The translations under genes were made by a program, and so were the position numbers. From Candidatus Adlerbacteria bacterium (GTDB taxonomy: Bacteria; Patescibacteriota; Minisyncoccia; Phycocordibacterales; SBAW01): DNA of 64,000 nucleotides. Below are positions 31,540 through 46,253 of the stretch, in pieces (position 1 is the stretch's first letter; each line of letters starts with the position of its first letter). The stretch spans positions 53,087 through 117,086 of the forward strand of contig PLCJ01000003.1 in the NCBI GenBank assembly GCA_003135635.1. Direction: 5' to 3'. Under the pieces are notes generated by a model. The model was not told the origin of the DNA. It did not search any database and saw only the letters and a program-made list of their open reading frames with translations.

Positions 31540-31611
31540 TCCGGCGTAGCTCAATGGTAGAGCAGCTCCCTGTTAAGGAGTTGGTTGTAGGTTCGAGTCC
31601 TACCGCCGGAG
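31540..31611 (+). tRNA. tRNA-Asn (anticodon GUU)
   Basis: Cloverleaf: acceptor UCCGGCG/CGCCGGA, D-arm GCUC-AAUGGUA-GAGC, anticodon stem GCUCC/GGAGU with loop CUGUUAA, T-arm GUAGG-UUCGAGU-CCUAC, discriminator G. Confidence 0.85.
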
Positions 31612-32913
31612 CAAGATAGGATTTTTTGAGTACAAATCATCCATATCCCTTGTGTTTGCTTTGTTTTCTACAGGTTCTAACTTTGCGTGAATAGCGCGGA
31701 CCTCAATTGCCATCGTTTGTATTGGGAATAACAGATTATCCCAGTCAATGCTCAACTTCCTGCCTTTTAAGATGAGGTCCGAACCTAGCGCGGCGAAAAT
31801 CTCTTTCCGAGTCTCAAGGTCGTTTCTTTTCTTTGCCTCGGCAAAAACAGCCATCCCCTTCTCTGCAAAGTTGAAACCGCGCTCGGCAATCTCAAGCCAG
31901 TTCTCCACACGCTTATCAGTATCCTTGAGGAGTTCTTGAAGTCGTCCCTTTTCAGCAAGGAGTGTTTGTTTTCTGCCCTTGAACTCCCCCTCTGTCAGCT
32001 CACCGTTGGCACGCATATCAATGAGGTTGTCTACCCTGCGCACACATGCCTCATATTCGCGCCTCTGTGCACCGTAGATACGGTCTCGGTCCGATACCTC
32101 TTGCGTGTTCATCTCACGAAGGCGTGCTAAAGCCCAGTTATTGAAATCAGTAGGTATCTCTATTGAGCCCAGCTCCTTTGCTATCTGTTTCTCAAGCTCC
32201 GCTTCCTCAATCGCTGGCTCTTTGCAGTTCGGGTTCCTGCGTTTGGTGCAATGATAGTAAGTGTAGTGGTGCGTGTTGCCGTTTTTCTGGTATTTCACTT
32301 TTTCCTCGGCAGTAACCATAGCGCCACATCCTCCACACTTGATAGGTCCGCGATACATAATCTCGTGCTTCTTTGGGTGCGGGTAGTTCTTTCGTCCAAT
32401 CAAAAACTGTATGCGGTCATACTCCTCGCGGGTAATCATCGGCTTGTGGATGCCCTTCATCGTGCTAAAGAGTTTCATATCCCGATACTTGTTTGTAGTC
32501 CACGCGGGCACGATGCTCCAAAAGTGGAGTTGTCCATTGTCGCCGATTTTACGGAGAATGACTTTGATTTTGCGCCCATCGGTGATAGCGATAATGCCCC
32601 AATACTTCACGGGCTTTGCTTTGAGTATTTTTTTCTTATGACTTTTGACCTCAAACTGTTTGATAGTTTCTTCGTATTCTTGATAGGTATTAGAGTGCCC
32701 TATGAGTTTTATGGCGCGTGGCAGGAGCTTGAAGCGTAGTATTTGTGATGGACGCTCTCGCTCACTCCGTGAACCTTTGAAAATGATGTGATTGAAACCC
32801 TCTGCTGTGAAATGCACATACTCGTTGAGTGCGGGCGACATAATAGGGCGGGTGGCGCTATAGAGTTTTTGAGCGTCCTCACGGAGTTTGTCGTAGTTAG
32901 AAAGGTCTTCCAT
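31600..32913 (-). CDS. Large-serine-recombinase-like protein (recombinase domain, Zn beta-ribbon, coiled coil) without recognisable resolvase catalytic domain
   Basis: ITREEYDRIQFLIGRK then GPIKCGGCGAMV...YTYYHC...C matches the LSR recombinase/zinc-ribbon region. Long C-terminal coiled coil. The N-terminal 150 aa lack the YxRVSxxxQ serine motif. The 3' end overlaps tRNA-Asn by 12 nt. Confidence 0.65.
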   Translation of the reverse strand: MEDLSNYDKLREDAQKLYSATRPIMSPALNEYVHFTAEGFNHIIFKGSRSERERPSQILRFKLLPRAIKLIGHSNTYQEYEETIKQFEVKSHKKKILKAKPVKYWGIIAITDGRKIKVILRKIGDNGQLHFWSIVPAWTTNKYRDMKLFSTMKGIHKPMITREEYDRIQFLIGRKNYPHPKKHEIMYRGPIKCGGCGAMVTAEEKVKYQKNGNTHHYTYYHCTKRRNPNCKEPAIEEAELEKQIAKELGSIEIPTDFNNWALARLREMNTQEVSDRDRIYGAQRREYEACVRRVDNLIDMRANGELTEGEFKGRKQTLLAEKGRLQELLKDTDKRVENWLEIAERGFNFAEKGMAVFAEAKKRNDLETRKEIFAALGSDLILKGRKLSIDWDNLLFPIQTMAIEVRAIHAKLEPVENKANTRDMDDLYSKNPILLRR

Positions 32914-32970
32914 AGCAAATAGTTTACACTACCCTGCCCCGTTATGGTTTGCACTTAAATACATAAACAA

Positions 32971-33399
32971 ATGCGCTATAATGCAGCAATGTATCGGGCA
33001 ACGAACCTTCAGAAAAAACTACTCTTTATTGCTCTCATAGCGTTTGTGATATTGAGCATGCCCGCTTCCGCTTCTCTAGCTATGCCCGTGGGCACAGACG
33101 GTCATATGTCAGGGTGTACCTTTATGAACGGCGGCTCAATCTGTACCATGGCTCCTTTGGAACACATAGCCGCTTGGCAAAGCATGTTCACCGCGGCGCA
33201 TCTCAAAGAAGCATCTCTTTTTCTCAACCTCATTCTAATCACTCTGTTCTCCGTCTTTCTTTTCTTACGACGTTTGGATACAAGTCAGCTTCAAAACAAA
33301 TCATTGTATACTCAACGTTTCAGATACCCTCGCTATTCAATTCGTAATGAATTACAAGAAGCGTTTTCTAGCGGCATTCTCCATCCCAAAGTTTTTTAG
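32971..33399 (+). CDS. hypothetical membrane protein
   Basis: Two hydrophobic segments. TATAAT promoter upstream. Confidence 0.45.
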   Translation: MRYNAAMYRATNLQKKLLFIALIAFVILSMPASASLAMPVGTDGHMSGCTFMNGGSICTMAPLEHIAAWQSMFTAAHLKEASLFLNLILITLFSVFLFLRRLDTSQLQNKSLYTQRFRYPRYSIRNELQEAFSSGILHPKVF

Positions 33400-33462
33400 A
33401 GCCGTATCAGAGCGTGTTGAATACCGCACGCAGTGTTTTTCTATTACCTAACTTTGTAACCT

Positions 33463-34182
33463 ATGGAACAAGAAACTAAAAAACTACAACTATCCCAGCC
33501 AGTCGCAATTATTATCGCAGGGGTCATCATAGCGGGAGCTGTCATCTGGAGCAGTGGTAACAGAAATGCTGCGCCAAATACAACTGGGAGTACCCAACAG
33601 CAGGGCTCTACCGTTGCTGTAGACAGCAGCAAAGTGAATATCCAAGGCGAGCCATTTATCGGCAATCCCAACGCTCCGCTTATCATCGCATACTGGTTTG
33701 ACTACCAGTGTCCGTTCTGTCAGCGCAATGAGGAGACCGCTATGCCGCAACTAATCAAGGACTATGTAGACACAGGCAAAGCAAAGCTCGTGTTCAAGGA
33801 TTACGAGTTCTTGGGCGATGACTCACAGACACTAGGACAATACGCCCGTGCAGTATGGGCAACAGCACCTGACAAGTTCTACCCGTGGCACAAAGCTATC
33901 TTTGACAATCAAGGTCAAGAGAATAGTGGCTGGGCAACACAGGCAAAAATCCTCTCCATCACAACAAGCGTACTTGGCGCTAGCGATACGGCTAAAGTAG
34001 TAGCTCTCGTAAAAACAAATGGGGCTGCTTACCAGAAAGTAATGGATGCAGATAAAGCCGAAGGTTCAGCAAACGGTGTTACAGGTACTCCAGGTATGGT
34101 CATAGGCAAGCATTTGGTTTCTGGTGCAATACCCTACGCTCAAATAAAGGCAACCATAGAAGCGGCTCTCAAAAACCAATAA
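33463..34182 (+). CDS. DsbA-family thiol:disulfide oxidoreductase (membrane-anchored)
   Basis: N-terminal TM. Thioredoxin fold with CPFC active site. Confidence 0.8.
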   Translation: MEQETKKLQLSQPVAIIIAGVIIAGAVIWSSGNRNAAPNTTGSTQQQGSTVAVDSSKVNIQGEPFIGNPNAPLIIAYWFDYQCPFCQRNEETAMPQLIKDYVDTGKAKLVFKDYEFLGDDSQTLGQYARAVWATAPDKFYPWHKAIFDNQGQENSGWATQAKILSITTSVLGASDTAKVVALVKTNGAAYQKVMDADKAEGSANGVTGTPGMVIGKHLVSGAIPYAQIKATIEAALKNQ

Positions 34183-34184
34183 GT

Positions 34185-34853
34185 ATGCAAAAGAAAACAT
34201 ACACTCCGCTGCTTATCCTAGCGGGCGCACTCCTCATAAGCGGCTTTATTGTTACCAAATCCAGCATCGTACCCAAAGCAAATGCACAGCTCACTGCTAC
34301 ATATAACAGTATTCCAACTGTGAGCGGTAAGGTGCTGTTCATGCAACAGAGCCAAAATCTAACACAGAGCGTTGACCCCGCGCTTGTTGATTTGGACTCC
34401 CAGCTCATTACTTGCAGTCCCAATGTAGATAGTTTGCTTACAGCTAAGCCTATGCTTGGAGGAAGCTGTCTGGCAGGAGATAGTACACTCGGCACAACAA
34501 CGGGCATGTTTTTAGGCGGTCAGTGCTGTGGGTCAATGAAAAATCTAACGGACTATAACACTGAACTTCAAAACCTTCAGCAATACAAAGACATTCCTGA
34601 TTTGCCAATGAACCCATACAAAACGCCCGTGGCTCTTGCGAAGAAATGGATTGACTACGACAAGGCAACTAACCTCACACCTTCAGAACAAGCAACTATG
34701 GACCAAGCAATGCATATGTCAAAAGAAGGTCCATGTTGCTGCAAATGTTGGCACTACTTCGTCAATGAAGGTATCGCAAAGAAAATGATAAAGGATTACC
34801 ACTACAGCGCTCAACAAGTTGCGGCATACTGGGATACTTCAAGTATCTGCTAA
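34185..34853 (+). CDS. hypothetical Cys-rich secreted protein
   Basis: Signal anchor. 13 Cys including CCGS and CCCKC clusters. Confidence 0.6.
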   Translation: MQKKTYTPLLILAGALLISGFIVTKSSIVPKANAQLTATYNSIPTVSGKVLFMQQSQNLTQSVDPALVDLDSQLITCSPNVDSLLTAKPMLGGSCLAGDSTLGTTTGMFLGGQCCGSMKNLTDYNTELQNLQQYKDIPDLPMNPYKTPVALAKKWIDYDKATNLTPSEQATMDQAMHMSKEGPCCCKCWHYFVNEGIAKKMIKDYHYSAQQVAAYWDTSSIC

Positions 34854-34856
34854 CCT

Positions 34857-35483
34857 ATGCGTATGTATATCTGCCCAATGCACCCAGAGGTTCGGCAAGA
34901 CAAGCCTGGTCGTTGTCCTAAATGCGGCATGGCTCTTGTAGATGAGAGCACGTACCAAGCTAAACCCGTTATTGCTGACAAGGGACTTGGGCAGATTACA
35001 TGGCGCAGTTACATACCACTGGCTGTCATTGGGATGCTATTACTGCTCTCTACTCTCGCTGTATCGGTACACCAGTATCTTTTGGGAAGTTTCTTACCCG
35101 CAAATGCCATATCCTACTTTATGGCGGGTTTTTTCATTGTGTTTGCGGGTTTCAAACTTATGGACTTGAAAGGGTTTGCGGAAGGGTACTCAACGTACGA
35201 CTTACTGGCAGGACGCTGGTTTCGCTACGGCTATGTTTATCCGTTTATTGAGCTTGGATTTGGTATGGCTATGCTCGCAGGAATAGTGAACCCCTCCCTT
35301 TTGTGGGCAGAGTTGATAGTAATGTTGTTCAGCGGTATAGGTGTTGCAATCAAACTGGCAAAAGGCGAGAAGTTTCAGTGCGCCTGTCTTGGAACTTTTC
35401 TCAAAGTACCCCTTACAAAAATCACACTCATTGAGGATTTCGGTATGGCACTACTCGCACTAGCACTTCTGCTCATAGGTTGA
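34857..35483 (+). CDS. Heavy-metal-binding domain fused to MauE/DoxX-like membrane oxidoreductase domain
   Basis: N-terminal YICPMHPE...PGRCPKCGMAL. 4-TM body with C-terminal CAC motif (FQCACLG), as in the MauE family. Confidence 0.7.
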   Translation: MRMYICPMHPEVRQDKPGRCPKCGMALVDESTYQAKPVIADKGLGQITWRSYIPLAVIGMLLLLSTLAVSVHQYLLGSFLPANAISYFMAGFFIVFAGFKLMDLKGFAEGYSTYDLLAGRWFRYGYVYPFIELGFGMAMLAGIVNPSLLWAELIVMLFSGIGVAIKLAKGEKFQCACLGTFLKVPLTKITLIEDFGMALLALALLLIG

Positions 35484-35785: not shown

Positions 35786-35843
35786 CGCTTTTACCCTCTA
35801 TCAAACAGGTTCTAACACAGTCCAGTTCGCGGAGCTAAAAAAG
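35786..35843 (+). repeat. Composite island element, copy D (TTTTACCCTCTATC, core)
   Basis: cttttaccctctatcaaacaGGTTCTAACAcagtCCAgttcGCGGAGCtAAAAaag. Confidence 0.7.
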
Positions 35844-35868
35844 CCCTATTTCACAATCCTTTTTATAC

Positions 35869-35897
35869 TTGACAATAACTGTTATATATGATTAAAT
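35869..35897 (+). promoter_or_regulatory. sigma70-like promoter candidate for the 35940 gene
   Basis: TTGACA, 17-nt spacer, TTAAAT. GTG start with RBS aaggaga 40 nt downstream. Confidence 0.3.
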
Positions 35898-35939
35898 GTT
35901 CTTGAACGTACCTACACAATTCAACGAAAGGAGAACGTC

Positions 35940-36422
35940 GTGGGCTACTACTATGCCAAGGCAAGGCAGAAAAAAGAGCTCACCGCTCTTCAACAAGAAC
36001 GGTATGGAGAACTTCGTGGAAGTTTTAACGAACTCCACCCTGACCTCGCAACCGATTTGCCCTCTGCGCTTCGGGAACGACTCGTATACGACAAAGACTA
36101 CATCGGGCCCATCTTCAATGGCGAGACTTGGTCCGCCCTGGAAGAACTGGTGGAGGATACTTTGGTCAACTGGGTTTTGGCTGAGGAAAATCCCCAACGA
36201 GTTAAGTGGCTCGATCCCAAGGATCTGGTGGTGCCAGAACCTCCTCCAACTGAAGAAGAGCTCGAAGAGGGTAGGAAGCGGTGGGAAGATCTTATTCGCA
36301 GACAGGAAAAGCGACAAAAAGAAGATGCCCGAATCGATTTTGAAATTCGGTTCTGGTGGCTTCCCGAGCTAATCAAGCGCCCTATGCGAAAAATGGTCAC
36401 CGGCTGTGAATCAGCTCCTTAG
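35940..36422 (+). CDS. hypothetical charged soluble protein
   Basis: GTG start after aaggaga. 160 aa, E/K/R-rich C-terminus. Confidence 0.6.
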   Translation: MGYYYAKARQKKELTALQQERYGELRGSFNELHPDLATDLPSALRERLVYDKDYIGPIFNGETWSALEELVEDTLVNWVLAEENPQRVKWLDPKDLVVPEPPPTEEELEEGRKRWEDLIRRQEKRQKEDARIDFEIRFWWLPELIKRPMRKMVTGCESAP

Positions 36423-36437
36423 GTCGAATGCCTATAG

Positions 36438-36536
36438 CCCCGATGAGACTTCGTTCTCAACGGGGTTTCATTGTTTTTATACCCTCACTTCCCTTCCGAG
36501 ACTGGTTCTAACATCCTCCAGGGCGGGGAGCAAAAT
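36438..36536 (+). repeat. Composite island element, copy E (hairpin, T-run, ATACCCTCAC, core)
   Basis: ccccgatgagacttcgttctcaacggggtttcattgtttttataccctcacttcccttccgagactGGTTCTAACATCCTCCAgggcggggagcaaaat. Confidence 0.85.
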
Positions 36537-36552
36537 AGGTCAAGTTCGGAAC

Positions 36553-36561
36553 TGATATGAT
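36553..36561 (+). promoter_or_regulatory. extended -10 promoter (TGaTATGAT), probably producing a leaderless mRNA
   Basis: TGnTATGAT lies 7 nt upstream of the ATG at 36569. There is no SD. Confidence 0.4.
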
Positions 36562-36568
36562 AAGTCAC

Positions 36569-37009
36569 ATGAATCCATCGCTCAAACAACTGGAGCCATT
36601 GGTTGGTAAATGGGTCATGGAATTGTCCAATGCTTCCTTTCTTCCTGATCATTCTACCACTGTACGAGGAACCACTTCCTGCGAATGGATTGAGGGGGGT
36701 GATTTTTTAGCTGTGCGCCAAGGAGCCAAGGGAGCAGGAACTCCCTATTCTGTATGGCTTATTGGTCGTGACAAAGCATCTTCCGAGTATACTGCTCTTT
36801 ATTTTGACGACCGTGGAGTCTCAAGGGTATATAGAATGAGTTTTAAGAGCGGAATCTGGAAACTCTGGCGGGTCACACCTAAATTCTCGCAACGCTTCGA
36901 GGGCAAACTAAGCAAAGACAAAAAGACCATTAAAGCTCAATGGGAGAAAAAGTTTGGAAGCAAAAAGTGGGAACACGATTTCGACCTAACTTATAGCAAG
37001 CGTAAATAG
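36569..37009 (+). CDS. hypothetical protein (beta-rich, possibly lipocalin/DUF1579-like)
   Basis: 146 aa. Start set at MNPSLKQ downstream of the extended -10. Confidence 0.55.
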   Translation: MNPSLKQLEPLVGKWVMELSNASFLPDHSTTVRGTTSCEWIEGGDFLAVRQGAKGAGTPYSVWLIGRDKASSEYTALYFDDRGVSRVYRMSFKSGIWKLWRVTPKFSQRFEGKLSKDKKTIKAQWEKKFGSKKWEHDFDLTYSKRK

Positions 37010-37042
37010 CTTCTAACATTCTCCAAGGTACGGAGCAAAAAG
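37008..37042 (+). repeat. Composite island element, copy F (core only, abuts the stop codon)
   Basis: agCTTCTAACATtCTCCAaggtacGGAGCAAAAag. Confidence 0.8.
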
Positions 37043-37069
37043 CAGTAGATTACGTGTTACACTAAATCC

Positions 37070-37180
37070 GTGAATATAGCAGCAATATTTTCTTGGGGGT
37101 CACCATTAGGCATAGGACTTTGGATGGCAGGTTTAGGTGTATTTTTTTGGGGCCTGAGCAAATTCATTCACAGGAATTAA
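37070..37180 (+). CDS. candidate 36-aa hydrophobic peptide
   Basis: GTG start. VNIAAIFSWGSPLGIGLWMAGLGVFFWGLSKFIHRN. Lies exactly between element copies F and G. Confidence 0.25.
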   Translation: MNIAAIFSWGSPLGIGLWMAGLGVFFWGLSKFIHRN

Positions 37181-37186
37181 TTAGGC

Positions 37187-37224
37187 TGGTTCTAACATCC
37201 TCCAAGGTGCGGAGCTATTTTTTA
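37187..37224 (+). repeat. Composite island element, copy G (core)
   Basis: ctGGTTCTAACATCCTCCAaggtgcGGAGCtatttttt. Confidence 0.85.
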
Positions 37225-37306
37225 TGCCTTATTTTCAATGGGATTTTTGATACCCCAATTGGACATCAGAACTTTTAATTGGCAATCTCAGTGCTAGGAT
37301 ATACAT

Positions 37307-37489
37307 ATGAACAAGCGACCGCTGTATGTGTACGTAATCGGAGTTGTTGTTGTGTGGGCGATTATTCTCACACTCTCATGGTTTGGAGTCATCTGGAAAC
37401 CCTTCAATGAAGTTGTCACAGTATGTGCGGGCTTCGCCCTCGGGATGCTCGCGATGTATATCGCCGTACACCTGTATAGGTGGAAATAA
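37307..37489 (+). CDS. small membrane protein (2 TM, 60 aa)
   Basis: Two hydrophobic helices (VYVIGVVVVWAIILTL, VCAGFALGMLAMYIAV). Confidence 0.5.
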   Translation: MNKRPLYVYVIGVVVVWAIILTLSWFGVIWKPFNEVVTVCAGFALGMLAMYIAVHLYRWK

Positions 37490-37521
37490 TCTAGCGGACA
37501 ACTCCTGCCCGCAGAGGACAA

Positions 37522-37530
37522 TGGTATAAT
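37522..37530 (+). promoter_or_regulatory. extended -10 promoter (TGgTATAAT), leaderless candidate
   Basis: atgGTATAAT lies 9 nt upstream of the ATG at 37540. Same architecture as at 48602-48610. Confidence 0.4.
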
Positions 37531-37539
37531 AACGACATC

Positions 37540-37719
37540 ATGGACAAATGGCGCTCGACATACGTCAAGCTAGTAGTACTTGAACTTGTACTAAGTGTGG
37601 TGTTCTTTGCACTCGGGCATTACATTGGGAACGCTTATTTTCGTGGCGTAGGTGTCGGCTTGTTAATCGCTTGGGTCACGGGCGCCTTAGCTTATTTTAT
37701 TGTGAAGAGAAGAGTTTGA
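37540..37719 (+). CDS. small membrane protein (2 TM, 59 aa; absent from the ORF track, which omits ORFs under 60 aa)
   Basis: MDKWRSTYVKLVVLELVLSVVFFALGHYIGNAYFRGVGVGLLIAWVTGALAYFIVKRRV. Confidence 0.45.
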   Translation: MDKWRSTYVKLVVLELVLSVVFFALGHYIGNAYFRGVGVGLLIAWVTGALAYFIVKRRV

Positions 37720-37776
37720 ATGTTTGTTTACACAAACCCCAACATTTGAATTTCTTTCGCTAGCGTTGCCCAATCC

Positions 37777-37812
37777 AGAGTTCTGAACGTGTCCAACGAG
37801 TGGAGCAACTAC
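37777..37812 (+). repeat. Composite island element, copy P (degenerate core), immediately followed by TTGACT
   Basis: agaGTTCTgAACgTgTCCAacgagtGGAGCAActac. Confidence 0.5.
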
Positions 37813-37886
37813 TAATTGACTCGACAGATTAACTTATTATGTTAGTCTAATTTTAGAATCTTAAAAGTGCCTACGGGAGAGCAATT

Positions 37887-38111
37887 ATGCGCGACAGGAC
37901 CGACTACGGTCATCAATTTCTCGCCAACCAGGATCCTAAGTTCTGGATGAATAGTTGGGGGCCGTTGATTCTTGTCTTTCCCCCCGGACCTTTCCGAAAC
38001 GGATACTGGAAACTCTTCATCCCAAAAACAGACAAGAGTATCGGGTTCACGGGAGAAACTGCAGAGCAGTCAGCATTTCTATTTGCTGCAATTTTTTCCG
38101 GATCAGCCTAA
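37887..38111 (+). CDS. hypothetical small protein
   Basis: RBS gggagag. 74 aa. Confidence 0.5.
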   Translation: MRDRTDYGHQFLANQDPKFWMNSWGPLILVFPPGPFRNGYWKLFIPKTDKSIGFTGETAEQSAFLFAAIFSGSA

Positions 38112-38121
38112 CCAAGCCGTT

Positions 38122-38201
38122 CACCAGCAAGCCGCCTGGAGGACGGTTTTGCTTTTTATATCTTCAGGCTAGTCCTCACATCCTCCAGAGTGGGCTATAC
38201 C
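38122..38201 (+). repeat. Composite island element, copy H (type I hairpin identical to copy C, then diverged core)
   Basis: accagcaagccgcctGGAGGAcggttttgctttttatatcttcaggctagtcctcACATCCTCCAgagtgggc. Confidence 0.8.
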
Positions 38202-38559
38202 AAATGAAAGGGCCTACGATTGCTCGTGGGCTCAGTTGGGAAGATCGATTTTGAAGTGTTATCGAACTTTTCAGCTCTAGTCTTGAATGAGATGCTGCAA
38301 CCTTTGATACGGATTACTCCGCTTCTCTAGTATTCACAAGTCATTGTTTGACCACTTCTGCCTCGCCGGCACCAACCCGATGTTTAAGCCAGCTACCTGT
38401 TAAGATTTCCGGCTCACCCATCTTGCGTGGCGCGACGACAAAGAACTATCTGGCTTCCTCTATACTAAACATATAGATGTGGATATAGGTGGTCAAGCAT
38501 CATATATAAGAATATCGCTGAATAAGCTGTGCACAATATGTGCAGAAGTGGCATAAAAC

Positions 38560-38646
38560 GGTGGATAGTGCATCCGAGACTTTTTTTATTACTTTGGCAA
38601 GGGGCTAAGATAGGTTCTAACATCTTCCACGAGGGGAGCAAAATGC
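38560..38646 (+). repeat. Composite island element, copy I (weak hairpin, T-run, core)
   Basis: gagactttttttattactttggcaaggggctaagataGGTTCTAACATCtTCCAcgaggggagcaaaatgc. Confidence 0.8.
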
Positions 38647-38746
38647 TTTTTTGTGAAAAGAACTTAAATTACTTGCTTTTTTATACATAGATGCTTTTAT
38701 TGCCAAAGAACCCAAACCTGTAGAGTTTTGTCTTGAGGAGGCAACG

Positions 38747-39400
38747 TTGAAAATAATTCGCCGGCAGATAATCCTAGGAATTGCCGTACTTTTGGTTTTG
38801 TGCGGATGCCAAGGAGCTGCTACAAACACACCTGTTCTTTCACAAACACCCATTCCAGCTTCGACCGTATACTCTCTCGATAATTTTGCGGGTGCGAATG
38901 GGAGCTTGCTGACGGCCCACATCCCGGACATCGGTCCCCTTTGGAGGATCATGACTGATCCAACCAAATGGATCCTTCAATCAGGTGCTCTTACCCGTTC
39001 TTATTTCGTAATCGACCAGGCATGTGTCGATACGAAACAGACTGATGTCGTCATTAGCGCAAACTTCACCTCCCTTAACGGTCTCTCATCGCTCCTTGTG
39101 CGTCGTCAGAATGGGGGGAATTATTGGGGGCTCTTCTACGACACCGTCCGAAACGGCTGGCAAATGGACAAAGTACTAGGAGGTCCTGATCAATTCCAAG
39201 GACCTCTCCTTCCCGGATCGATCGGGATCGTCAGTCTGAGCGCTAAGGGCAACACTATCACGGCGGTAGGACCACGTGGTGATGTGTTTAGTGTCACCGA
39301 TCCAGCACTCAATACTCAGACACAAGCATGTCTCGTCCTTGACGGAGATGGGACAAATGCTTCTACCGTCAAAAGTTGGAAAGCGACCAGCGTCATATAA
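38747..39400 (+). CDS. hypothetical lipoprotein
   Basis: TTG start after gaggagg. Signal peptide with LVLCGC lipobox-like cysteine. Confidence 0.65.
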   Translation: MKIIRRQIILGIAVLLVLCGCQGAATNTPVLSQTPIPASTVYSLDNFAGANGSLLTAHIPDIGPLWRIMTDPTKWILQSGALTRSYFVIDQACVDTKQTDVVISANFTSLNGLSSLLVRRQNGGNYWGLFYDTVRNGWQMDKVLGGPDQFQGPLLPGSIGIVSLSAKGNTITAVGPRGDVFSVTDPALNTQTQACLVLDGDGTNASTVKSWKATSVI

Positions 39401-39421
39401 GGATAAGAACATTTATTCGAG

Positions 39422-39459
39422 GGAGCTTCGTCTTAGTACGAAGCTCCTTTCCATTTTTG
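39422..39459 (+). terminator. intrinsic terminator (10-bp perfect stem GGAGCTTCGT/ACGAAGCTCC, then T-run)
   Basis: ggagcttcgtcttagtacgaagctcctttccatttttg. Forms the 5' part of element copy J. Confidence 0.7.
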
Positions 39460-39502
39460 TGCGTTTATGTAGGTTCGAACATCCTTCATGAGGGAGAGTT
39501 CG
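39422..39502 (+). repeat. Composite island element, copy J (terminator, T-run, core closest to the tRNA-Asn 3' end)
   Basis: tgtAGGTTCGAacatCCTtCAtgaGGGAGAG shares the 10-mer GTAGGTTCGA with the tRNA-Asn T-arm. Confidence 0.8.
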
Positions 39503-39704
39503 TTGTCTCACCTCACTCTAGTGGAGATACATATAAAAATCGAAAGGACCGTGTTCGAGAGAAGGGTGCGAACACCACAACCTATCGAACACGGCCTTGT
39601 CTTTGCTACAACCTCCGAGCGCCAACGCGTTCATTTTTAAGGTCAACAACAGTCAACTTAGAAACTTCGGGAAGCTTGATCGATACCAACTATGGGTCAT
39701 GTCA

Positions 39705-40532
39705 TTAGAATGCTCCCGCGAAGCTGAAAGCCGAACCGATGAGGTTTTCCTGGTACGTATTCCAGAACGGGCTGGACCCCTTTGCGTTTTCGAACGCTCC
39801 AATGCTGGGGCCGAATTCAGTAAAGTAAACCGGCTTCGACGTTCCGAACGCGGCTTGGACTGCCGTGATTGCTGAGCGCATCCCATCGTCGGTCTGCCTG
39901 TACGGATGCAGGCCGTAGCCGTCAACGTAGGGCGCCAGCGACGCGATTGCTTGATCCCATCCGATGTCGAGTCCAGACGTTCCGCCCGTGATAATCGTCG
40001 CGCTCGGGCATGCGGCGCGGATTGCCGGCGCTGTCGCCTTAACGAGCGAGAGATACGCGGTGTAATCGATATTTGCTTGGCCGTTCGGCGCGTCTGGCTC
40101 GTTGTATATCTCGAAGATAAGCGACGGGACTGAACCACAACGCCGCGTGGCCTCGGCTGCGACGTAGACCGCGTAAGCGGCGGGGCTATACGGGAGGCGC
40201 TCGGCGAACGTGCCGTCTGTGTGAATGTACGGCGTGATCTCCATCACGCTGAGATTGTCAGCAGAAGCCGCCGCAAAAAACGCGTCGTAGTACGCTTCGC
40301 CGTACTCCTTCGTGTAGTCAACGCGCACGGCATTTGCCTTCATCGCGACTGCCACTGAAAGTTGCACAGTCGGATCACCGTACTGCGGATGGACTTCAAC
40401 AGAGCGCAGCGTCGTGTAGAGGTTCGTGGACACGGGCGGGATGCTTGGAATCGCGCCACCACCTCCACCACAGCCAGCGAGTGCGGCGATGAATAAAATC
40501 GCGAGGGGTGAGAAGTTCTTTGATATCTTCAC
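39705..40532 (-). CDS. Glycoside hydrolase family 5-like lipoprotein
   Basis: Lipobox LAGC. IFEIYNEPD (acid/base Glu) and YFTEFG (nucleophile Glu). The gene is clearly more GC-rich than its surroundings. Confidence 0.7.
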   Translation of the reverse strand: MKISKNFSPLAILFIAALAGCGGGGGAIPSIPPVSTNLYTTLRSVEVHPQYGDPTVQLSVAVAMKANAVRVDYTKEYGEAYYDAFFAAASADNLSVMEITPYIHTDGTFAERLPYSPAAYAVYVAAEATRRCGSVPSLIFEIYNEPDAPNGQANIDYTAYLSLVKATAPAIRAACPSATIITGGTSGLDIGWDQAIASLAPYVDGYGLHPYRQTDDGMRSAITAVQAAFGTSKPVYFTEFGPSIGAFENAKGSSPFWNTYQENLIGSAFSFAGAF

Positions 40533-40841
40533 GGGAACCGGCCCTTCGTCGGTGCTGAATGGTACCGTTGTCTGGGATATACAATAAATTACTATCGATA
40601 TTTCGTCAATAGCGCGTGCCCTAAATTTAACTATACACTTGACAAATAATTAATACATGGTACACTAGTCCCAGACGCTAAACATTCTCGCGGATTAAGT
40701 GGAATGTACGTTCCTAGAAGGGGTACCACATGTCCTACGCTCTCGACAACCACGGCCAACCACACTTCGGATCGTTCGTTAAAGCATCACAGTCGGCGAC
40801 CGACACCAACAAGAAGTAACACTTCCCGGCCGGTGCGTCAG

Positions 40842-40927
40842 GAGACCTCGCAGCAATTTTGCGGGGTCTCTTTTTTTTTATACAATCAAACTGTTTTGAA
40901 CATCCTCAAGGGTGCGGAGCAATAAAC
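40842..40927 (+). repeat. Composite island element, copy K (terminator, T-run, ATACAATCAAAC, core)
   Basis: gagacctcgcagcaattttgcggggtctcttttttttatacaatcaaactgTTTTGAACATCCTCAAgggtgcGGAGCAAtaaac. Confidence 0.8.
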
Positions 40928-40934
40928 TTGATTT

Positions 40935-41366
40935 CTAGTGCAAGAGTCCCATATGAGTAAATCCAGCATGAATTAGGTAAGCACTAACCACCAAGATAAT
41001 AATGGCATACAGATAGAAAAACTTTTCTAAGTTGACCGAGCGTGCCCAGCGGACGATGGTCTTAGGAATAAAGAGAAGAGCGGCGCCCTTAAGTAAGGCT
41101 GCCCACCCGGTAATGGTAATAACAAGGGCAAGAATCCCTGCATTCCAGTAGTTGTGGTTAAGCACCAATAACAACCCGAGGAGCATCGCAATCCAACCGG
41201 CTAAGAATAGGGAGGTCGAACCACTGTAGAATTCATTTATTACCTCAAGAAACATCTTCTTTCGAAGCAACATCAAAAGTCCCACGAAGAGCAAATACAG
41301 ACCGATAAGCTGAGCGAGAAAATAAGTTAGTCCCATAAAAATTGATGAAACTGATAAGGGGTGCAT
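40935..41366 (-). CDS. hypothetical polytopic membrane protein
   Basis: 4 hydrophobic helices, 143 aa. Confidence 0.6.
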   Translation of the reverse strand: MHPLSVSSIFMGLTYFLAQLIGLYLLFVGLLMLLRKKMFLEVINEFYSGSTSLFLAGWIAMLLGLLLVLNHNYWNAGILALVITITGWAALLKGAALLFIPKTIVRWARSVNLEKFFYLYAIIILVVSAYLIHAGFTHMGLLH

Positions 41367-41386
41367 TCATACTATAGCACCTAAAC

Positions 41387-41422
41387 GGGTTCTGGTACCT
41401 TCCACGAGGAGGAACAAAAAGG
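41387..41422 (+). repeat. Composite island element, copy L (degenerate core)
   Basis: gGGTTCTggtACcTtCCAcgaggagGAaCAAAAagg. Confidence 0.5.
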
Positions 41423-41635
41423 AACCCCGCAGTTGTATGCGGGGCCTTAGGCCTAATCTTTCCTACGATGCGAGTCTATTTACGAGCCTTTTTACCTTTT
41501 CTGGATCCAGCTCGAAGAAGGACCTGCTCACTCCCGTCGACACTAAGAAGCAATCGGCAAGGAGATATCCTCCTATGTTTTCTAGTGTCATGCCGCTTGC
41601 GATCGCAAGTGGATGATCGCCTATTGCTTCCTTCA

Positions 41636-42163
41636 TCACACGGATTTTTCCACGTCTGGTGGAGTTCCTGTCTTTGACCCGCTAGTAGTGATGACATCGA
41701 TGTAGGGGGTCGCTAATTGGGCAACGCGAGCTACGTCATACACAGTTTCCTGGCCCTTGAATGCGACTCCCCCGAAGAGAGGAAAATATTCAGGGAGCAG
41801 GTGTTTTTTCCAATCATGCGTATCGCGGGCCTGACGTACAGGGTCTTCTGCACGCTCACGAATACCGCCGTCGTCTACCCAAAGACCCGACACTGAAGGA
41901 TCTTTCTCAATTTTCCGAATCGCTGTTCTGTTGTCGAGACTAAGATAGTTGAGACCAATCCATAAGTCAGGAAAGGCCTTTCGAGCGAAAAGGTAGCATC
42001 CATCAAGTCGGCCGTGGAGGTCACTATGGTCGATGAGAAAGACCCCATCTGCTCCCGCCTCGCACACAGTGCGCACGTTTCTAAGTGTCTGCTCAACATC
42101 TTTTACATGGATGACGATGAGGAGTGTGTGGGGCTTCGGAAAGATATTTGTGAAGGGGTTCAT
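41636..42163 (-). CDS. hypothetical protein (possible TIM-barrel-like fold)
   Basis: 175 aa. Alternating beta/alpha pattern. No confident family. Confidence 0.5.
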   Translation of the reverse strand: MNPFTNIFPKPHTLLIVIHVKDVEQTLRNVRTVCEAGADGVFLIDHSDLHGRLDGCYLFARKAFPDLWIGLNYLSLDNRTAIRKIEKDPSVSGLWVDDGGIRERAEDPVRQARDTHDWKKHLLPEYFPLFGGVAFKGQETVYDVARVAQLATPYIDVITTSGSKTGTPPDVEKSV

Positions 42164-42247
42164 GACACCTCCTTTCTTTTTTTAATGTTCAGTAGCTGGC
42201 AGAACTATGTGAGATAGCGCCACAGAAGTCAAACTTTGTAATGAAAA

Positions 42248-42285
42248 TAGGTTCGAACATCCTCCACGAAGGGAGCAAACAAAAT
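42248..42285 (+). repeat. Composite island element, copy M (core)
   Basis: tAGGTTCgAACATCCTCCAcgaagGGAGCAAAcaaaat. Confidence 0.85.
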
Positions 42286-42716
42286 AAAATCATCCTGCTG
42301 GTCCTCAGGATGATTCTCTATGACCCCCAAAGGTCAGGCACTAGCTTCTTTTAGCTCGCCGTGCCGGTGTGTTGCCTTATGAGCTTCTATACCCCCTTCG
42401 GATAATAAACCAGGGAAGCCGTTGGCAAATAGATGATGCCAAATTTAAACAGAATAATCAAATATAACTGATAGTGAACATCGTTAACATAACACGAATG
42501 TAAGAACCTTAACTCCCCCACTTCTTCCTATCAGACCTTATAAAAGCTTGTATTTTTCAAACAGATATCCTAAACTCCCATTGGGTTGGAGAAGTGTGTG
42601 TTGGGGACCTTCAAAGCACCGACGCTCGTCGTGGCCACGCTAGGGCCTGGCGGAGACACAATGAGGAGAGTCTCATACTCCCTCTCATTAGCTGGCCTCC
42701 TTCTCTGACTTTTTTA

Positions 42717-42792
42717 CTCCGCCTTGTGCGGAGTTTTCCTTATTATACAATCACCGACTTTCTTCATCATCCGCTTAAGCGAAGAGTGCACC
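42717..42792 (+). repeat. Composite island element, copy Q (type III hairpin, ATACAATCACC, degenerate core)
   Basis: ctccgccttgtgcggagttttccttattatacaatcaccgactttcTTCatCATCCgCttAAGcGaaGAGtgcAcc. Confidence 0.5.
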
Positions 42793-42846
42793 TCTCCCCA
42801 CTCCAATCTCTACCGTCTGACCTTTTATTGCCCCTGCCAACCAAGG

Positions 42847-42855
42847 TTGTATAAT
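42847..42855 (+). promoter_or_regulatory. extended -10 promoter TTGTATAAT for the surface-protein gene
   Basis: TGTATAAT lies 37 nt upstream of the ATG at 42892. Confidence 0.45.
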
Positions 42856-42891
42856 TATTGACACCATTTAATATCATTAATAATAAGAGCT

Positions 42892-44124
42892 ATGGATACA
42901 CAACCATCTGGTAATTATCATCGAAGCATGTGGCCGAGTGGAGCAAAATACACGATTATCACAAGAATTGTTATCGGTGCGATAGTTATAGTGTTTTTAA
43001 TCGTGGTTGGCGTTGTTATTATCGGCATGAGGAATAATTCGTCCTTCAACATCAATCCCGGCTCAGGGAAAGAGGGAACCGAGATCACGATCGTGTATCC
43101 AAAGGCACCGTCTTCCCTTTCCGGTTCAGCAACTGTAAAGTTCTATGATGCTGGTGAGCATGGCTGGTATATGGTTAGTGGCGGCGCCGCAGTTTATGTC
43201 GCCTACGATTCAACCAAGGGTTTGACCTATAGCGCTCCAGCTACGGCTACAGGCTCTAACAACAATGGCGCGAGCTACACGGCAACCGTCCCTCAGGGGA
43301 TTTGCGGATTCATAATTCAATCTGATCAGGCAACACCCGCTCCGCCAAAGGTGCTTGATGTCTCCATAGCAGGGCCTGACGGCACGCCGATCCCGGGGAC
43401 ACATCCGACAAAGTTTAATCTGATATGCGATAAATATACGCTGAAGGCGAAAATCACAGCTAATCCCGACAAGGTTCTGCCGGACGGTGCCAGCCAGTCA
43501 ACCATAACTGCAAACTTGAGCGTGACGGGGCCGGCTCAAGTTGTTATCGGCCAGAAAATTACAAAACCTACTCAACCAATTATTCTAGTGTCACCGCTTG
43601 GTTTGGTGATGGTCCACTTCAATACCAGCCTCGGTACGATTGCGCCGAATCCAGCCAATGTTAAGACCGATTTAAGTGGAGATGCCGTTGTGACTCTTAC
43701 CTCGATGGATGCGGGCATAGCCAAGGTTCAGGCGGTTGCTTCAGGCATCGGAGACGCCATTGCTAATGTTTATTTTGAGCCAAAGATCACCGGCGTCCAG
43801 GAAAATTTCGTCCAGCCAAACAGCCCGACCAATTATCAGATATCCACAATTCCCGCGAATCCAAAGGATCTTACTTTCGATTGGGAGATCATTCGTCCTG
43901 CCGGGCCCGTCTGCGGGAGTCTCACCGGCCCCGCAAGCGGCTTGGGTGAATCAATGAACGGTTTCTTCCATGGACTGACTTCCGATTTTCCGAACGGCTG
44001 CGACGAAACTTATGAATTCGCCACTCAGATCAAAGTCACAGTCACCGACAAGGATGGACAAAGTGATAGTAAAACTTTCTCAGCGAGAGCTCTCGAGGGA
44101 CAGGGCGTGGTCAAGTTGCCGTAG
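42892..44124 (+). CDS. membrane-anchored surface protein with bacterial Ig-like (Big) domains
   Basis: N-terminal TM. Repeated beta-sandwich segments (DGASQSTITANLSVTG, LSGDAVVTLTSMDAGIAKVQAV). Confidence 0.65.
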   Translation: MDTQPSGNYHRSMWPSGAKYTIITRIVIGAIVIVFLIVVGVVIIGMRNNSSFNINPGSGKEGTEITIVYPKAPSSLSGSATVKFYDAGEHGWYMVSGGAAVYVAYDSTKGLTYSAPATATGSNNNGASYTATVPQGICGFIIQSDQATPAPPKVLDVSIAGPDGTPIPGTHPTKFNLICDKYTLKAKITANPDKVLPDGASQSTITANLSVTGPAQVVIGQKITKPTQPIILVSPLGLVMVHFNTSLGTIAPNPANVKTDLSGDAVVTLTSMDAGIAKVQAVASGIGDAIANVYFEPKITGVQENFVQPNSPTNYQISTIPANPKDLTFDWEIIRPAGPVCGSLTGPASGLGESMNGFFHGLTSDFPNGCDETYEFATQIKVTVTDKDGQSDSKTFSARALEGQGVVKLP

Positions 44125-44211
44125 AAGTCAAAAACGAGTTTGAAAGTCGCCCCATCGGAAACAGATATAAAGAAGACGCCGCTCTTTTCAGAACGGCGCT
44201 TGTGCTGCGGT

Positions 44212-44598
44212 TTAACACGCAAGTAAGCTTCTCATCCGATTTATTGTTAGACAGGCCGTTGTGGCTTCTTCGCATGTGGCCGCAAGTTTCTGCAGTCCAG
44301 AAGAATCATCATTGTGCGGTAATGCAGTTTCCACAACATTTACGATGAGCTCATGAAGACCACCAGGCATCGGATGGCTAAGAAGTTCGGAAAGGTGTCT
44401 GTGTGCCTGTTCGGCTCTCTGGCGCTGACCCGCAACAAAGAGGATGTATTTTCTGGAACCTGAATGCTGAGTCGGGTCGGCGTTGAGACAGAAGTACCGT
44501 ATGGCCGAAAGGTCTCGGGCCGCTTGTTGAATGCTCTGGCGCTGATTTCCTTCAGGGAATGAAGGCACAGTTTCGGTCCTCCTTTCAAGTGAAACCAT
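44212..44598 (-). CDS. hypothetical protein (doubtful)
   Basis: ORF in a GC-rich patch, no family. Alternative frames overlap it. Confidence 0.3.
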   Translation of the reverse strand: MVSLERRTETVPSFPEGNQRQSIQQAARDLSAIRYFCLNADPTQHSGSRKYILFVAGQRQRAEQAHRHLSELLSHPMPGGLHELIVNVVETALPHNDDSSGLQKLAATCEEATTACLTINRMRSLLAC

Positions 44599-44687
44599 TC
44601 CTACAATACCTAAAATTTTAAGGATGTCTACAACTGAAGTTTGGGTCGCAAAACACCATCTATCAAAATATAATTTCGGTGGTCTGC

Positions 44688-44975
44688 TTAGTAGTGAATC
44701 GTCGTAGTGGTACTTGTGACAGTACCACTGGTACTGTTTGGAACAGCGGTGGATCCACTACTTGGAACGTTTACTTGAATCGTGCTGGCGGGAGTTGAAT
44801 TATTCCCGACCCTGTAAAAACCAAACCATGCTATAAAACCTACAACCAGCAGCACTAGCAAGACGACGATGACAGTTAACGCTGAACCAGAGTCATTGCC
44901 ACCTCCTGTGTTATTAATTTCTGTAACCATACTATTGGATAGAGTAAATTCTAATAATAATTGGACCTTAGACAA
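44688..44975 (-). CDS. small membrane protein (1 TM, S/T-rich tail)
   Basis: TM ALTVIVVLLVLLVVGFIAWFGF. Confidence 0.45.
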   Translation of the reverse strand: MSKVQLLLEFTLSNSMVTEINNTGGGNDSGSALTVIVVLLVLLVVGFIAWFGFYRVGNNSTPASTIQVNVPSSGSTAVPNSTSGTVTSTTTTIHY

Positions 44976-45189
44976 GCCTTAAACCTCCAAGGAGCATGAG
45001 AACACCTACGATAATTGCCACAACTGCTACGACCATTGCTAAGGTGCGACTTGGAAAGAAGAAATGAATACCATACCCCAGAAAGAAAATGATTTCGCAC
45101 AATGTAAGTAAAGACATGGTTTGGTAGATTACTAATAATTTAGGAACTGCATCATGAATACGTTTTAGATTATGACAATAAAAAAACAA
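44968..45189 (-). CDS. small membrane protein (2 TM)
   Basis: Hydrophobic helices. Adjacent to the preceding small membrane gene. Confidence 0.4.
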   Translation of the reverse strand: MFFYCHNLKRIHDAVPKLLVIYQTMSLLTLCEIIFFLGYGIHFFFPSRTLAMVVAVVAIIVGVLMLLGGLRLV

Positions 45190-45668: not shown

Positions 45669-45676
45669 ACTCCAAA

Positions 45677-45762: not shown

Positions 45763-45874
45763 TCAAAAAAAGATTTAAATATCTGACCTTAATGTAGAGA
45801 ATTATAATTTGAGAAAATTTTGTTATACTGAATAGGATGTGTTTATCTAATCACCATTTTAACAAAATAATTTT

Positions 45875-46234: not shown

Positions 46235-46253
46235 TTTTGCTTAAAAACTACGT

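What the first reader, a model, noticed from the sequence alone, without database searches (positions are those of the whole stretch)
31600..32913. Serine-recombinase-like protein lacking the resolvase catalytic domain
Residues about 150-437 match the large-serine-recombinase recombinase-domain end, zinc beta-ribbon (GPIKCGGCGAMV..YTYYHC..C) and long coiled-coil. The first 150 aa (MEDLSNYDKLREDAQ..., K-rich) lack the catalytic Ser/Arg motifs. Only 57 nt separate the ORF start from the next gene's promoter, so no catalytic domain can be encoded upstream. The gene is either a decayed integrase, which would imply a fixed island, or a novel N-domain paired with LSR DNA-binding modules.
Basis: partly seen in the sequence, partly recalled or inferred. 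Interest (0 to 1): 0.6.

Follow-up and report, generated by a model that had tools for sequence, protein, structure and literature searches.

The report
Deletion-made fusion: small gene plus integrase tail
This ORF is a scar of genome decay: a deletion inside a mobile element inserted next to a tRNA gene joined a small conserved gene in frame to the non-catalytic tail of the element's serine integrase, so it is an ordinary remnant and not a new kind of recombinase.

Summary
The 437-aa ORF (31600..32913, minus strand) has a significant LSR zinc ribbon (PF13408) and coiled-coil tail, and no resolvase domain.

The N-terminal 154 residues are neither degenerate integrase nor a new domain. They are a near-complete copy (94% identity) of a stand-alone 159-aa Patescibacteria protein ("p159"), which is LPD3-like. 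Residues 153-437 equal residues 251-535 of intact ~535-aa LSRs (84% identity). The two parts meet in frame at a 7-nt microhomology, AAGGGCA (32451-32457).

In relatives, p159 and the LSR lie in the same orientation at opposite ends of 9-14 kb elements integrated at tRNA genes, with the LSR 3' end overlapping the tRNA. A single internal deletion explains the chimera. It removed the catalytic domain, most of the recombinase domain, a tyrosine integrase and all cargo.

The exact protein occurs on four independently assembled contigs, so it is not an artefact. No other fusion turned up in a 5.8-billion-protein search. Two other genomes carry differently truncated LSR remnants at the same murA-def-fmt-tRNA-Asn locus.

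Verdict: an integrase remnant. The recombinase is certainly inactive. Interest is low.

The parts
31600..32913 (-). Chimeric ORF, 437 aa (p159 codons 1-154 joined to LSR codons ~251-535, plus stop)
   Evidence: ORF list. Two non-overlapping sets of homologs. Exact protein on 4 contigs.
32452..32913 (-). p159-derived part, residues 1-154. It is a near-complete copy of a stand-alone 159-aa LPD3-like protein and lacks only the conserved C-terminal NPDED tail.
32451..32457 (-). Junction: 7-nt microhomology AAGGGCA shared by the 3' end of p159 genes (ATGAAGGGCAAC) and LSR codons 251-253 (CACAAGGGCATC)
   Evidence: Codon-level comparison of the window with L011/L001/L004 (p159) and L002/L008/L069 (LSR). 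The blastn boundaries overlap only here.
31603..32450 (-). LSR-derived part: last ~19 residues of the recombinase domain, linker, zinc ribbon, coiled coil and C-terminal tail
   Evidence: 83.5% aa and 82.7% nt identity to L002/P0001 residues 251-535. Alignment to the A118 integrase C-terminal domain, 4KIS/6DNW. Pfam coordinates of P0001.
32170..32355 (-). Recombinase zinc beta-ribbon (residues 187-248; CGGCG...YYHC...C)
   Evidence: PF13408 E 4.3e-8, 33.8 bits, above the curated cutoff of 25.3.
31885..32064 (-). Coiled-coil region of the LSR zinc-ribbon domain (approx. residues 284-343)
   Evidence: Sub-threshold SHOCT and DUF4164 helical matches. Well-conserved alignment to the same region of full-length LSRs. 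The coiled-coil assignment is inferred from LSR architecture.
31540..31612 (+). tRNA-Asn(GUU). Its 3' end overlaps the last 13 nt of the ORF. It is the attachment-site tRNA of the former element.
   Evidence: ARAGORN. Rfam RF00005, 73.5 bits. The same LSR/tRNA overlap occurs in L003 (tRNA-Gln), L008, L069 (tRNA-Asn) and L071 (tRNA-Gln).
32914..32970 (.). 57-nt intergenic spacer between the chimeric ORF and the divergent 142-aa membrane-protein ORF. Only the ~18 nt next to the ATG are conserved with other p159 loci.
   Evidence: No consensus promoter was found in it. No tRNA-Asn fragment or direct repeat was found here or elsewhere in the window.

Best explanation
The ORF is a chimeric remnant made by one internal deletion in a mobile element integrated at tRNA-Asn.

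The ancestral arrangement is seen intact in relatives: [p159 ->] - cargo (DGR reverse transcriptase/Avd, N6/N4 methyltransferase + ResIII helicase, DUF5659, HTH protein) - [tyrosine integrase ->][large serine recombinase ->][<- tRNA]. The last codons of the LSR gene overlap the tRNA 3' end.

An illegitimate, microhomology-mediated deletion between AAGGGCA at p159 codons 153-155 and the identical heptamer at LSR codons 251-253 removed roughly 9-13 kb. It happened to preserve the reading frame.

The product keeps the p159 (LPD3-like) fold minus its conserved acidic tail. It also keeps the LSR's last recombinase-domain helix, zinc ribbon and coiled coil. It has no catalytic Ser domain and so cannot recombine DNA. 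With the tyrosine integrase also gone, nothing encoded in the remnant can excise it.

The LSR tail probably survives because deletions cannot extend into the overlapping tRNA-Asn gene.

Shown: the two-part homology, the junction, the loss of domains, the arrangement in relatives, and reproducibility across assemblies. Inferred: the single-deletion history, its mechanism, and the absence of function of the LSR tail.
For: 1. Two disjoint homolog sets. Residues 1-154 match 159-aa stand-alone proteins at up to 94% identity. Residues 153-437 match residues 251-535 of ~535-aa LSRs carrying PF00239 + PF07508 + PF13408.
2. DNA similarity to p159 loci ends at 32448-32453 and similarity to LSR loci starts at 32457. 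The overlap is the heptamer AAGGGCA, present in both parental gene types.
3. Intact elements have p159 and the LSR in the same orientation at opposite ends. In L001+L003 (one 15.8-kb contig) p159 starts 12.1 kb upstream of the LSR, and a 22/23-nt direct repeat of the tRNA-Gln anticodon-arm region lies 144 nt upstream of p159, so p159 is inside the repeat-bounded element. L016 has the same gene order, and in L020 the LSR lies 9 kb downstream. Similar repeats sit 146 nt (L026) and 92 nt (L021) upstream of p159.
4. The LSR 3' end overlaps a tRNA in every case checked.
5. Independent decay at the same chromosomal locus (murA-def-fmt-...-tRNA-Asn). L008-L010 keep LSR residues 62-534. L069 keeps 99-535, with IS3-family transposase genes on both sides.
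6. No other fusion was found. Maximum query coverage in the 5.8e9-protein search was 76%, from a spurious extension. Among the 15 listed members of the 26-member 90% cluster, the window protein is the only one longer than 182 aa.
7. The exact protein is on 4 independently assembled contigs.
Against: - No intact element at tRNA-Asn in a close relative of this genome was recovered, so the ancestral state is inferred from more distant elements. The closest intact LSR, L002, has no p159 within 10 kb upstream.
- No displaced tRNA-Asn fragment or direct repeat marks a left end in the window.
- p159 also occurs as a solitary gene among housekeeping genes or next to IS110, with no element nearby. It may therefore have been a neighbour of the tRNA rather than part of the element.
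- The 437-codon frame is intact, and pairwise dN/dS of the LSR part (0.11) is no higher than between intact LSRs (0.08-0.16). Decay of the tail is not demonstrated. This fits a recent deletion but equally allows retained function.
Confidence: 0.85

Rival explanations
1. Same deletion, different starting point. p159 was not part of the element but a resident gene lying convergent to tRNA-Asn. An LSR element integrated between them, and the deletion then ran from the 3' end of the host gene across attL and the whole element interior into the LSR gene.
For: p159 lies convergent to a tRNA at only 150-900 nt, with no recombinase remnant between, in many loci: L013, L015, L021, L028, L035 (tRNA-Asn), L048, L051, L053. 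It also occurs alone among housekeeping genes. No attL repeat lies upstream of p159 in the window.
Against: In the one complete element, and in L026 and L021, the tRNA-derived direct repeat lies 92-146 nt upstream of p159. That places p159 inside the element. The partner tRNA differs between loci (Gln, Asn, Arg/Phe, Ser, Gly) while p159 stays 65-94% identical to the query, which fits a travelling gene better than a fixed host neighbour.
Confidence: 0.2
2. The fusion is a functional protein of new architecture. An LPD3-like (possibly RNase-toxin-fold) module is tethered to the att-site-binding zinc ribbon and coiled coil of an LSR. It might act as a dominant-negative blocker of re-integration by related elements at tRNA-Asn, or as a DNA-targeted effector.
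For: The 437-codon frame is uninterrupted, and all 47 invariant p159 positions are kept. dN/dS is 0.02-0.04 for the p159 part and 0.11 for the LSR part. The AF2 model shows residues 140-154 as disordered, so a C-terminal extension need not disturb the fold.
Against: The fusion is seen in a single lineage only. The in-frame outcome has a 1-in-3 chance expectation. The nearly invariant P/E/D tail of p159 is lost. Pairwise dN/dS mostly reflects divergence before the fusion. 5'-truncated LSR remnants at the same locus in other genomes also remain open frames, so an open frame is weak evidence of function.
Confidence: 0.07
3. Assembly or binning artefact: two unrelated contigs joined, or a frameshift hides an upstream catalytic domain.
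For: The source is evidently a metagenome-assembled Patescibacteria genome, and p159 genes often sit on ~1-kb contigs, suggesting assembly breakpoints.
Against: The exact 437-aa protein with the same neighbours is on 4 independently assembled contigs of up to 340 kb from different samples and sources. A 7-nt overlap is far below assembler k-mer sizes. No resolvase-domain coding sequence occurs in any frame anywhere in the window.
Confidence: 0.01
4. The junction was made by an enzyme-mediated event: LSR or tyrosine-integrase recombination at a pseudo-site, or template switching by the element's DGR reverse transcriptase. It would then not be a spontaneous microhomology deletion.
For: The element encodes two recombinases and an RT, and p159 lies next to the RT gene in L001 and L016. 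LSR crossover needs only a 2-bp identity.
Against: The junction is not recurrent. Other remnants break at LSR residues 62 and 99. The heptamer bears no resemblance to the tRNA-derived att repeats. p159 shows no DGR-type variability. In L001 an internal repeat of the C-terminal coding part of the 109-aa gene h109 lies next to Avd, which suggests that h109, not p159, is the DGR target.
Confidence: 0.03

Closest known systems
Large serine recombinases / serine integrases (e.g. Listeria phage A118 integrase, PDB 4KIS/6DNW; XisF; CcrB)
   Same: Residues 153-437 are homologous to the C-terminal DNA-binding part: the last recombinase-domain helix, the zinc beta-ribbon (PF13408) and the coiled coil. 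Identity to bona fide full-length Patescibacteria LSRs is 84%.
   Different: It lacks the whole resolvase catalytic domain with the Ser nucleophile, and 69 of 88 residues of the recombinase domain. It cannot be a recombinase.
Integrase pseudogenes and remnants of degraded tRNA-integrated genomic islands (as catalogued by Islander/TIGER, PMC4383910)
   Same: The remnant abuts the 3' end of a tRNA gene. The element's cargo and active integrases are lost. Other genomes carry independently truncated copies at the same locus.
   Different: The integrase next to the tRNA is a serine type, with a tyrosine integrase immediately upstream in intact copies. Islander states that tRNA-gene integration is usually catalysed by tyrosine integrases. 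Here the remnant is fused in frame to the element's distal gene. No displaced tRNA fragment survives in the window.
LPD3 (PF18798), 'large polyvalent protein-associated domain 3' of phage and conjugative-element polyvalent proteins (Iyer et al. 2017, PMC5512222)
   Same: Family members score just at or below the Pfam cutoff (P0142: 26.9 bits against 27, covering 109 of 114 profile positions). The best-coverage BFVD structural hits are polyvalent proteins, some annotated LPD3 (TMq 0.45-0.51).
   Different: Here it is a solo 159-aa protein in Patescibacteria chromosomes and islands, not a domain of a giant polyvalent protein. The window copy itself gives no Pfam hit. The function of LPD3 is unknown.
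BECR-fold endoRNase toxins (RelE/ParE/MqsR/BrnT, CdiA-CT, colicin D, RegB)

Membership tests
Large serine recombinase (serine integrase) | N-terminal resolvase catalytic domain (PF00239) with the Ser nucleophile (Y-x-R-x-S motif) | tested here: not met
   No PF00239 hit even at E<=10. Residues 1-154 are homologous to an unrelated 159-aa family. In the intact homolog P0001, PF00239 covers residues 12-155 with an 'YVRKST' motif that I read as the catalytic-Ser motif; all of it lies upstream of the breakpoint at 251.
Large serine recombinase (serine integrase) | Recombinase domain (PF07508) | tested here: not met
   No PF07508 hit. Only the last ~19 of 88 residues (P0001 251-269) are retained.
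Large serine recombinase (serine integrase) | Zinc beta-ribbon domain (PF13408) with Cys ligands | tested here: met
   PF13408 at residues 187-248, E 4.3e-8, 33.8 bits against a cutoff of 25.3.
Large serine recombinase (serine integrase) | Coiled-coil motif embedded in the zinc-ribbon domain | tested here: inconclusive
   The region aligns with good conservation to the corresponding part of full-length LSRs and gives sub-threshold helical matches (SHOCT, DUF4164). No dedicated coiled-coil prediction or structure model of this part was made.
tRNA-integrated genomic island | Integrase gene adjacent to a tRNA gene whose 3' part is supplied by the element | tested here: met
   The ORF's last 13 nt overlap the tRNA-Asn 3' end. 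The same overlap occurs in related intact and truncated copies. DNA similarity to L002, L008 and L069 continues into the tRNA.
tRNA-integrated genomic island | Displaced tRNA fragment or direct repeat marking the distal end | tested here: not met
   None in the window. It is present in the related intact element: 22/23 nt, 144 nt upstream of p159 in L001+L003.
tRNA-integrated genomic island | A functional integrase and cargo between the ends | tested here: not met
   Only p159 codons 1-154 and LSR codons 251-535 lie between the upstream divergent gene and the tRNA. tblastn with all element proteins finds nothing else in the window.
LPD3 (PF18798) | Score at or above the Pfam gathering threshold (27 bits) | tested here: inconclusive
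   The window ORF gives no hit. Family members score 12.7-26.9 bits, with P0142 at 26.9. Structural similarity to LPD3-annotated phage proteins is moderate: TMq 0.45-0.51, best E 8.6e-3.

The most novel reading that the evidence does not exclude
The in-frame chimera is maintained because it works. The LPD3-like module would be carried to tRNA-Asn att-type DNA by the LSR zinc-ribbon and coiled-coil tail. Alternatively the tail alone, through its coiled coil, would poison incoming LSR tetramers. Either way the host would gain immunity against re-integration of related elements. This would be a natural catalytic-domain-less LSR acting as an att-site decoy.
Probability: 0.06. Interest if true: 0.6.

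Novelty: new member of a known kind. Interest (0 to 1): 0.2.

Why it matters
For annotation, this ORF should be labelled a fusion or pseudogene remnant (p159::LSR C-terminal fragment). It should not be called a recombinase or a new domain architecture. The locus should be read as a nearly erased mobile element at tRNA-Asn.

More broadly, it is a clean example of how reductive Patescibacteria genomes erase integrated elements by microhomology deletions. It also shows why integrase 3' fragments persist when they overlap an essential tRNA gene.

The by-products may be more interesting than the finding:
- a very conserved, widely scattered LPD3-like gene that often marks the distal end of tRNA-integrated elements;
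- an LSR family whose genes overlap tRNA 3' ends.

Tried and rejected
- Searched the whole window by tblastn for the missing resolvase and recombinase-domain part, in case of a split or rearranged gene. Nothing found.
- Looked for a second copy of the tRNA-Asn 3' end or any tRNA-derived direct repeat marking the other element end in the window. None found.
- Suspected a recurrent junction because several database proteins start at 'MITREEY'. In L008 the LSR similarity in fact extends back to residue 62, so that start is a gene-caller choice and the junction is not shared.
- Tested for other recombinase remnants between p159 and the tRNA in 13 short loci. None found, only unrelated small genes.
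- Tried to find an ancestor-like intact element through the closest p159 relatives. They are solitary genes among housekeeping genes.
- PADLOC found no defence-system match for p159 or the chimera.
- dN/dS could not discriminate recent pseudogenisation from retained function.
- The AFDB50 fold library was unavailable.
- The apparent 76% coverage by P0117 is a low-identity gapped extension into the p159 part, not evidence of a longer LSR match.
- Rfam found no known RNA other than the two tRNAs in the window.

Full report
**1. The observation**

The ORF at 31600..32913 on the minus strand is real and encodes 437 aa.
- Pfam detects only the recombinase zinc beta-ribbon, PF13408, at residues 187-248 (E 4.3e-8, 33.8 bits, cutoff 25.3). 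Neither Resolvase (PF00239) nor Recombinase (PF07508) appears even at E<=10.
- NCBIfam XisF and CcrB models and PHROG 95 'integrase' (E 3.5e-20) match only residues ~148-390.
- The upstream neighbour is a divergent ORF starting at 32971, so the intergenic spacer is 57 nt.
- tblastn with three full-length relatives finds no resolvase-domain coding sequence in any frame of the 64-kb window.

**2. What the two halves are**

A search of 5.8 billion proteins with the whole ORF returns hundreds of ~535-aa Patescibacteria large serine recombinases (LSRs) with PF00239 + PF07508 + PF13408. All of them cover only ~65% of the query.
- The best, P0001, aligns its residues 251-535 to query residues 153-437 at 83.5% identity.
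- In P0001 the Pfam domains are Resolvase 12-155, Recombinase 182-269 and Zn ribbon 285-346. The window ORF therefore lacks the whole catalytic domain and 69 of 88 recombinase-domain residues.
- Alignment to the A118 integrase C-terminal domain (4KIS/6DNW) places the breakpoint just before the 'KGIHEPIISEEQF' segment, near the C-terminal end of the recombinase domain.

A separate search with residues 1-152 returns 669 clusters of stand-alone proteins, almost all 158-162 aa. They match at up to 94% identity over 100% of the query. I call this family p159.
- These proteins end '...KLFSTMKG-NPDED'.
- The window ORF reads '...KLFSTMKG-IHKPMITREEY...', and LSRs read '...WHKG-IHKPMITREEY...'.

**3. 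The junction**

- At the DNA level, similarity to more than 50 p159 loci runs from 32931 to 32448-32453.
- Similarity to LSR loci runs from 32457 through the ORF end into the tRNA.
- The overlap is the heptamer AAGGGCA (32451-32457, minus strand). p159 genes have ATGAAGGGCAAC (for example L011) and LSR genes have CACAAGGGCATC (L002).

This is the signature of a microhomology-mediated deletion that happened to be in frame.

**4. Arrangement in relatives**

One 15.8-kb contig (L001+L003) carries a complete element:
- Gene order: p159(+), DGR RT(-), Avd(+), a 109-aa gene, ResIII helicase(-), N6/N4 methyltransferase(-), three ORFs including DUF5659, a tyrosine integrase(+) and the LSR(+).
- tRNA-Gln(-) overlaps the LSR 3' end by 60 nt.
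- p159 starts 12.1 kb upstream of the LSR.
- A 22/23-nt direct repeat of the tRNA anticodon-arm region lies 144 nt upstream of p159 (E about 3e-7). p159 is therefore the first gene inside the repeat-bounded element.

Other loci agree:
- L016 repeats the same gene order, and L020 has the integrase pair 9 kb downstream of p159.
- L026 and L021 have tRNA-derived repeats 146 nt and 92 nt upstream of p159.
- Across 51 genome loci, a convergent tRNA lies 150 nt to 13 kb downstream of p159 in at least 15. tRNA-Gln is most common, and Asn, Arg/Phe, Ser and Gly also occur.

A single deletion between the 3' end of p159 and LSR codon 251 in such an element yields exactly the window's ORF. It removes the tyrosine integrase and all cargo.

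**5. The locus is a recurrent graveyard**

The window has murA-def-fmt-hpf-tRNA-Asn followed by the remnant. Two other genomes with the same synteny carry LSR remnants truncated elsewhere:
- L008-L010 keep residues 62-534 and have no p159.
- L069, from a 993-kb contig, keeps residues 99-535 and is flanked by IS3-family transposase genes.

In all of them the LSR stop lies inside the tRNA 3' end. That offers a simple reason why C-terminal fragments persist: deletions cannot extend into the tRNA. This reason is an inference. About 20 of the best 120 LSR hits lack PF00239. Two were verified as genuine truncations (P0004, P0007), and at least one (P0041) is probably cut by a contig end.

**6. Artefact and recurrence checks**

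- The exact 437-aa protein is on four independently assembled contigs, up to 340 kb, with identical neighbours.
- In its 26-member 90%-identity cluster, 15 members were listed. The window protein is the only 437-aa member; the other 14 are 159 aa, except one of 182 aa.
- No full-length fusion homolog appeared in the large search.

So the fusion is real but confined to one lineage.

**7. What the N-terminal module is**

- p159 is under strong purifying selection, with pairwise dN/dS of 0.02-0.09.
- The window copy keeps all 47 invariant positions but loses the nearly invariant P/E/D tail.
- Pfam gives consistent sub-threshold LPD3 (PF18798) matches. The best is 26.9 bits against a cutoff of 27.
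- Its best-coverage BFVD matches are phage polyvalent proteins, some annotated LPD3 (TMq 0.45-0.51).
- LPD3 is uncharacterised in its founding paper, which mentions it alongside PBECR RNase domains in Helicobacter prophage proteins (PMC5512222).
- p159 also occurs alone among housekeeping genes or beside IS110.

Whether p159 was inside the element in the window's ancestor, or a resident neighbour of the tRNA, remains open. I give the latter about 0.2.

**8. Function**

Recombinase activity is excluded because the catalytic domain is absent. A residual role for the chimera cannot be excluded. The frame is intact, and dN/dS of the LSR part (0.11) is no higher than between intact LSRs (0.08-0.16). 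But pairwise values mostly reflect evolution before the fusion, and the other truncated remnants are also open frames. I put the functional-fusion reading at about 0.06-0.07.

**9. Verdict**

This is a deletion-generated chimeric ORF, the last trace of a tRNA-Asn-integrated element.
- The 'novel N-domain' alternative is not supported.
- It is an ordinary form of genome decay: a new member of a known kind, with interest about 0.2.

Noticed in passing
window 14798-15351 and 35808-48560 (+ strand): A ~30-40-nt motif with core GGTTCTAACATCCTCCA, often followed by nGGnGnGGAGCAAA and preceded by a T-run plus ATAC, occurs 11 times at up to 3 mismatches. Chance expectation is 0.11. All copies are on the + strand in intergenic positions. 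The motif loosely resembles a tRNA T-arm plus acceptor 3' end, and in some copies it ends in a GGAG just before an ATG. There is no Rfam match. It could be a shared leader or promoter, a small repeat element, or serial att-like scars.
   Followed up: partly
L002 11574-11965 (contig JAYVXU010000058.1): In the genome with the closest intact LSR, the tRNA-Asn abutting the LSR is interrupted in the anticodon-loop region by ~255 nt. This insert matches the group I intron model (RF00028, 84.7 bits, E 4e-22), which explains why ARAGORN finds no tRNA there.
   Followed up: partly
L011-L061, L063-L068 (p159 loci); window 32452-32913: The 159-aa p159 family is unusually conserved: 65-94% aa identity across many Patescibacteria lineages, with dN/dS of 0.02-0.09. 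Yet DNA similarity stops ~18 nt upstream of its ATG, and its neighbours differ from genome to genome (glycolysis genes, ribosomal protein genes, IS110, element ends). Many copies sit on ~1-kb contigs. In at least 15 of 51 loci a tRNA lies convergently 0.15-13 kb downstream. It behaves like a self-contained, possibly mobile or addictive gene of unknown function, LPD3-like with a weak RelE-like fold signal.
   Followed up: partly
L003 10001-11670; L069 5001-6374; L071 20-923; window 31540-31612: In this Patescibacteria LSR family the 3' end of the LSR gene overlaps the 3' end of a tRNA gene (Asn or Gln) by 13-60 nt, so the protein's C-terminal tail is dictated by the tRNA sequence. In the L003 element a tyrosine integrase (PF00589) sits immediately upstream of the LSR; in L002 and L020 a ~396-aa protein occupies that position but has no Pfam hit on record. 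Which enzyme performs the tRNA integration is unclear.
   Followed up: partly
L001 1507-3690: The intact element carries a diversity-generating-retroelement-like module: RT (PF00078) and bAvd. A 117-nt sequence at 2935-3051 matches the C-terminal coding part of a 109-aa gene (residues 68-106, 54% at protein level), which looks like a template-repeat/variable-repeat pair. L016 has the same RT/Avd pair next to p159.
   Followed up: no
window 32971-35483 (+ strand): The genes upstream of the chimeric ORF are a 142-aa membrane protein, a DsbA-like thioredoxin, a 222-aa Cys-rich protein and an HMBD-MauE fusion, which suggests a disulfide or metal-handling cluster. In L004-L007 p159 also neighbours copper and heavy-metal genes, though on its other side. 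Whether this is cargo or host DNA was not resolved.
   Followed up: no
L045 1950-3219; L065 3-1168: L045 has two tandem p159 paralogs, 72% and 35% identical to the query. L065 has a 260-aa N-terminal-only LSR fragment (Resolvase + Recombinase) beside the enolase gene, 2.7 kb from p159.
   Followed up: no
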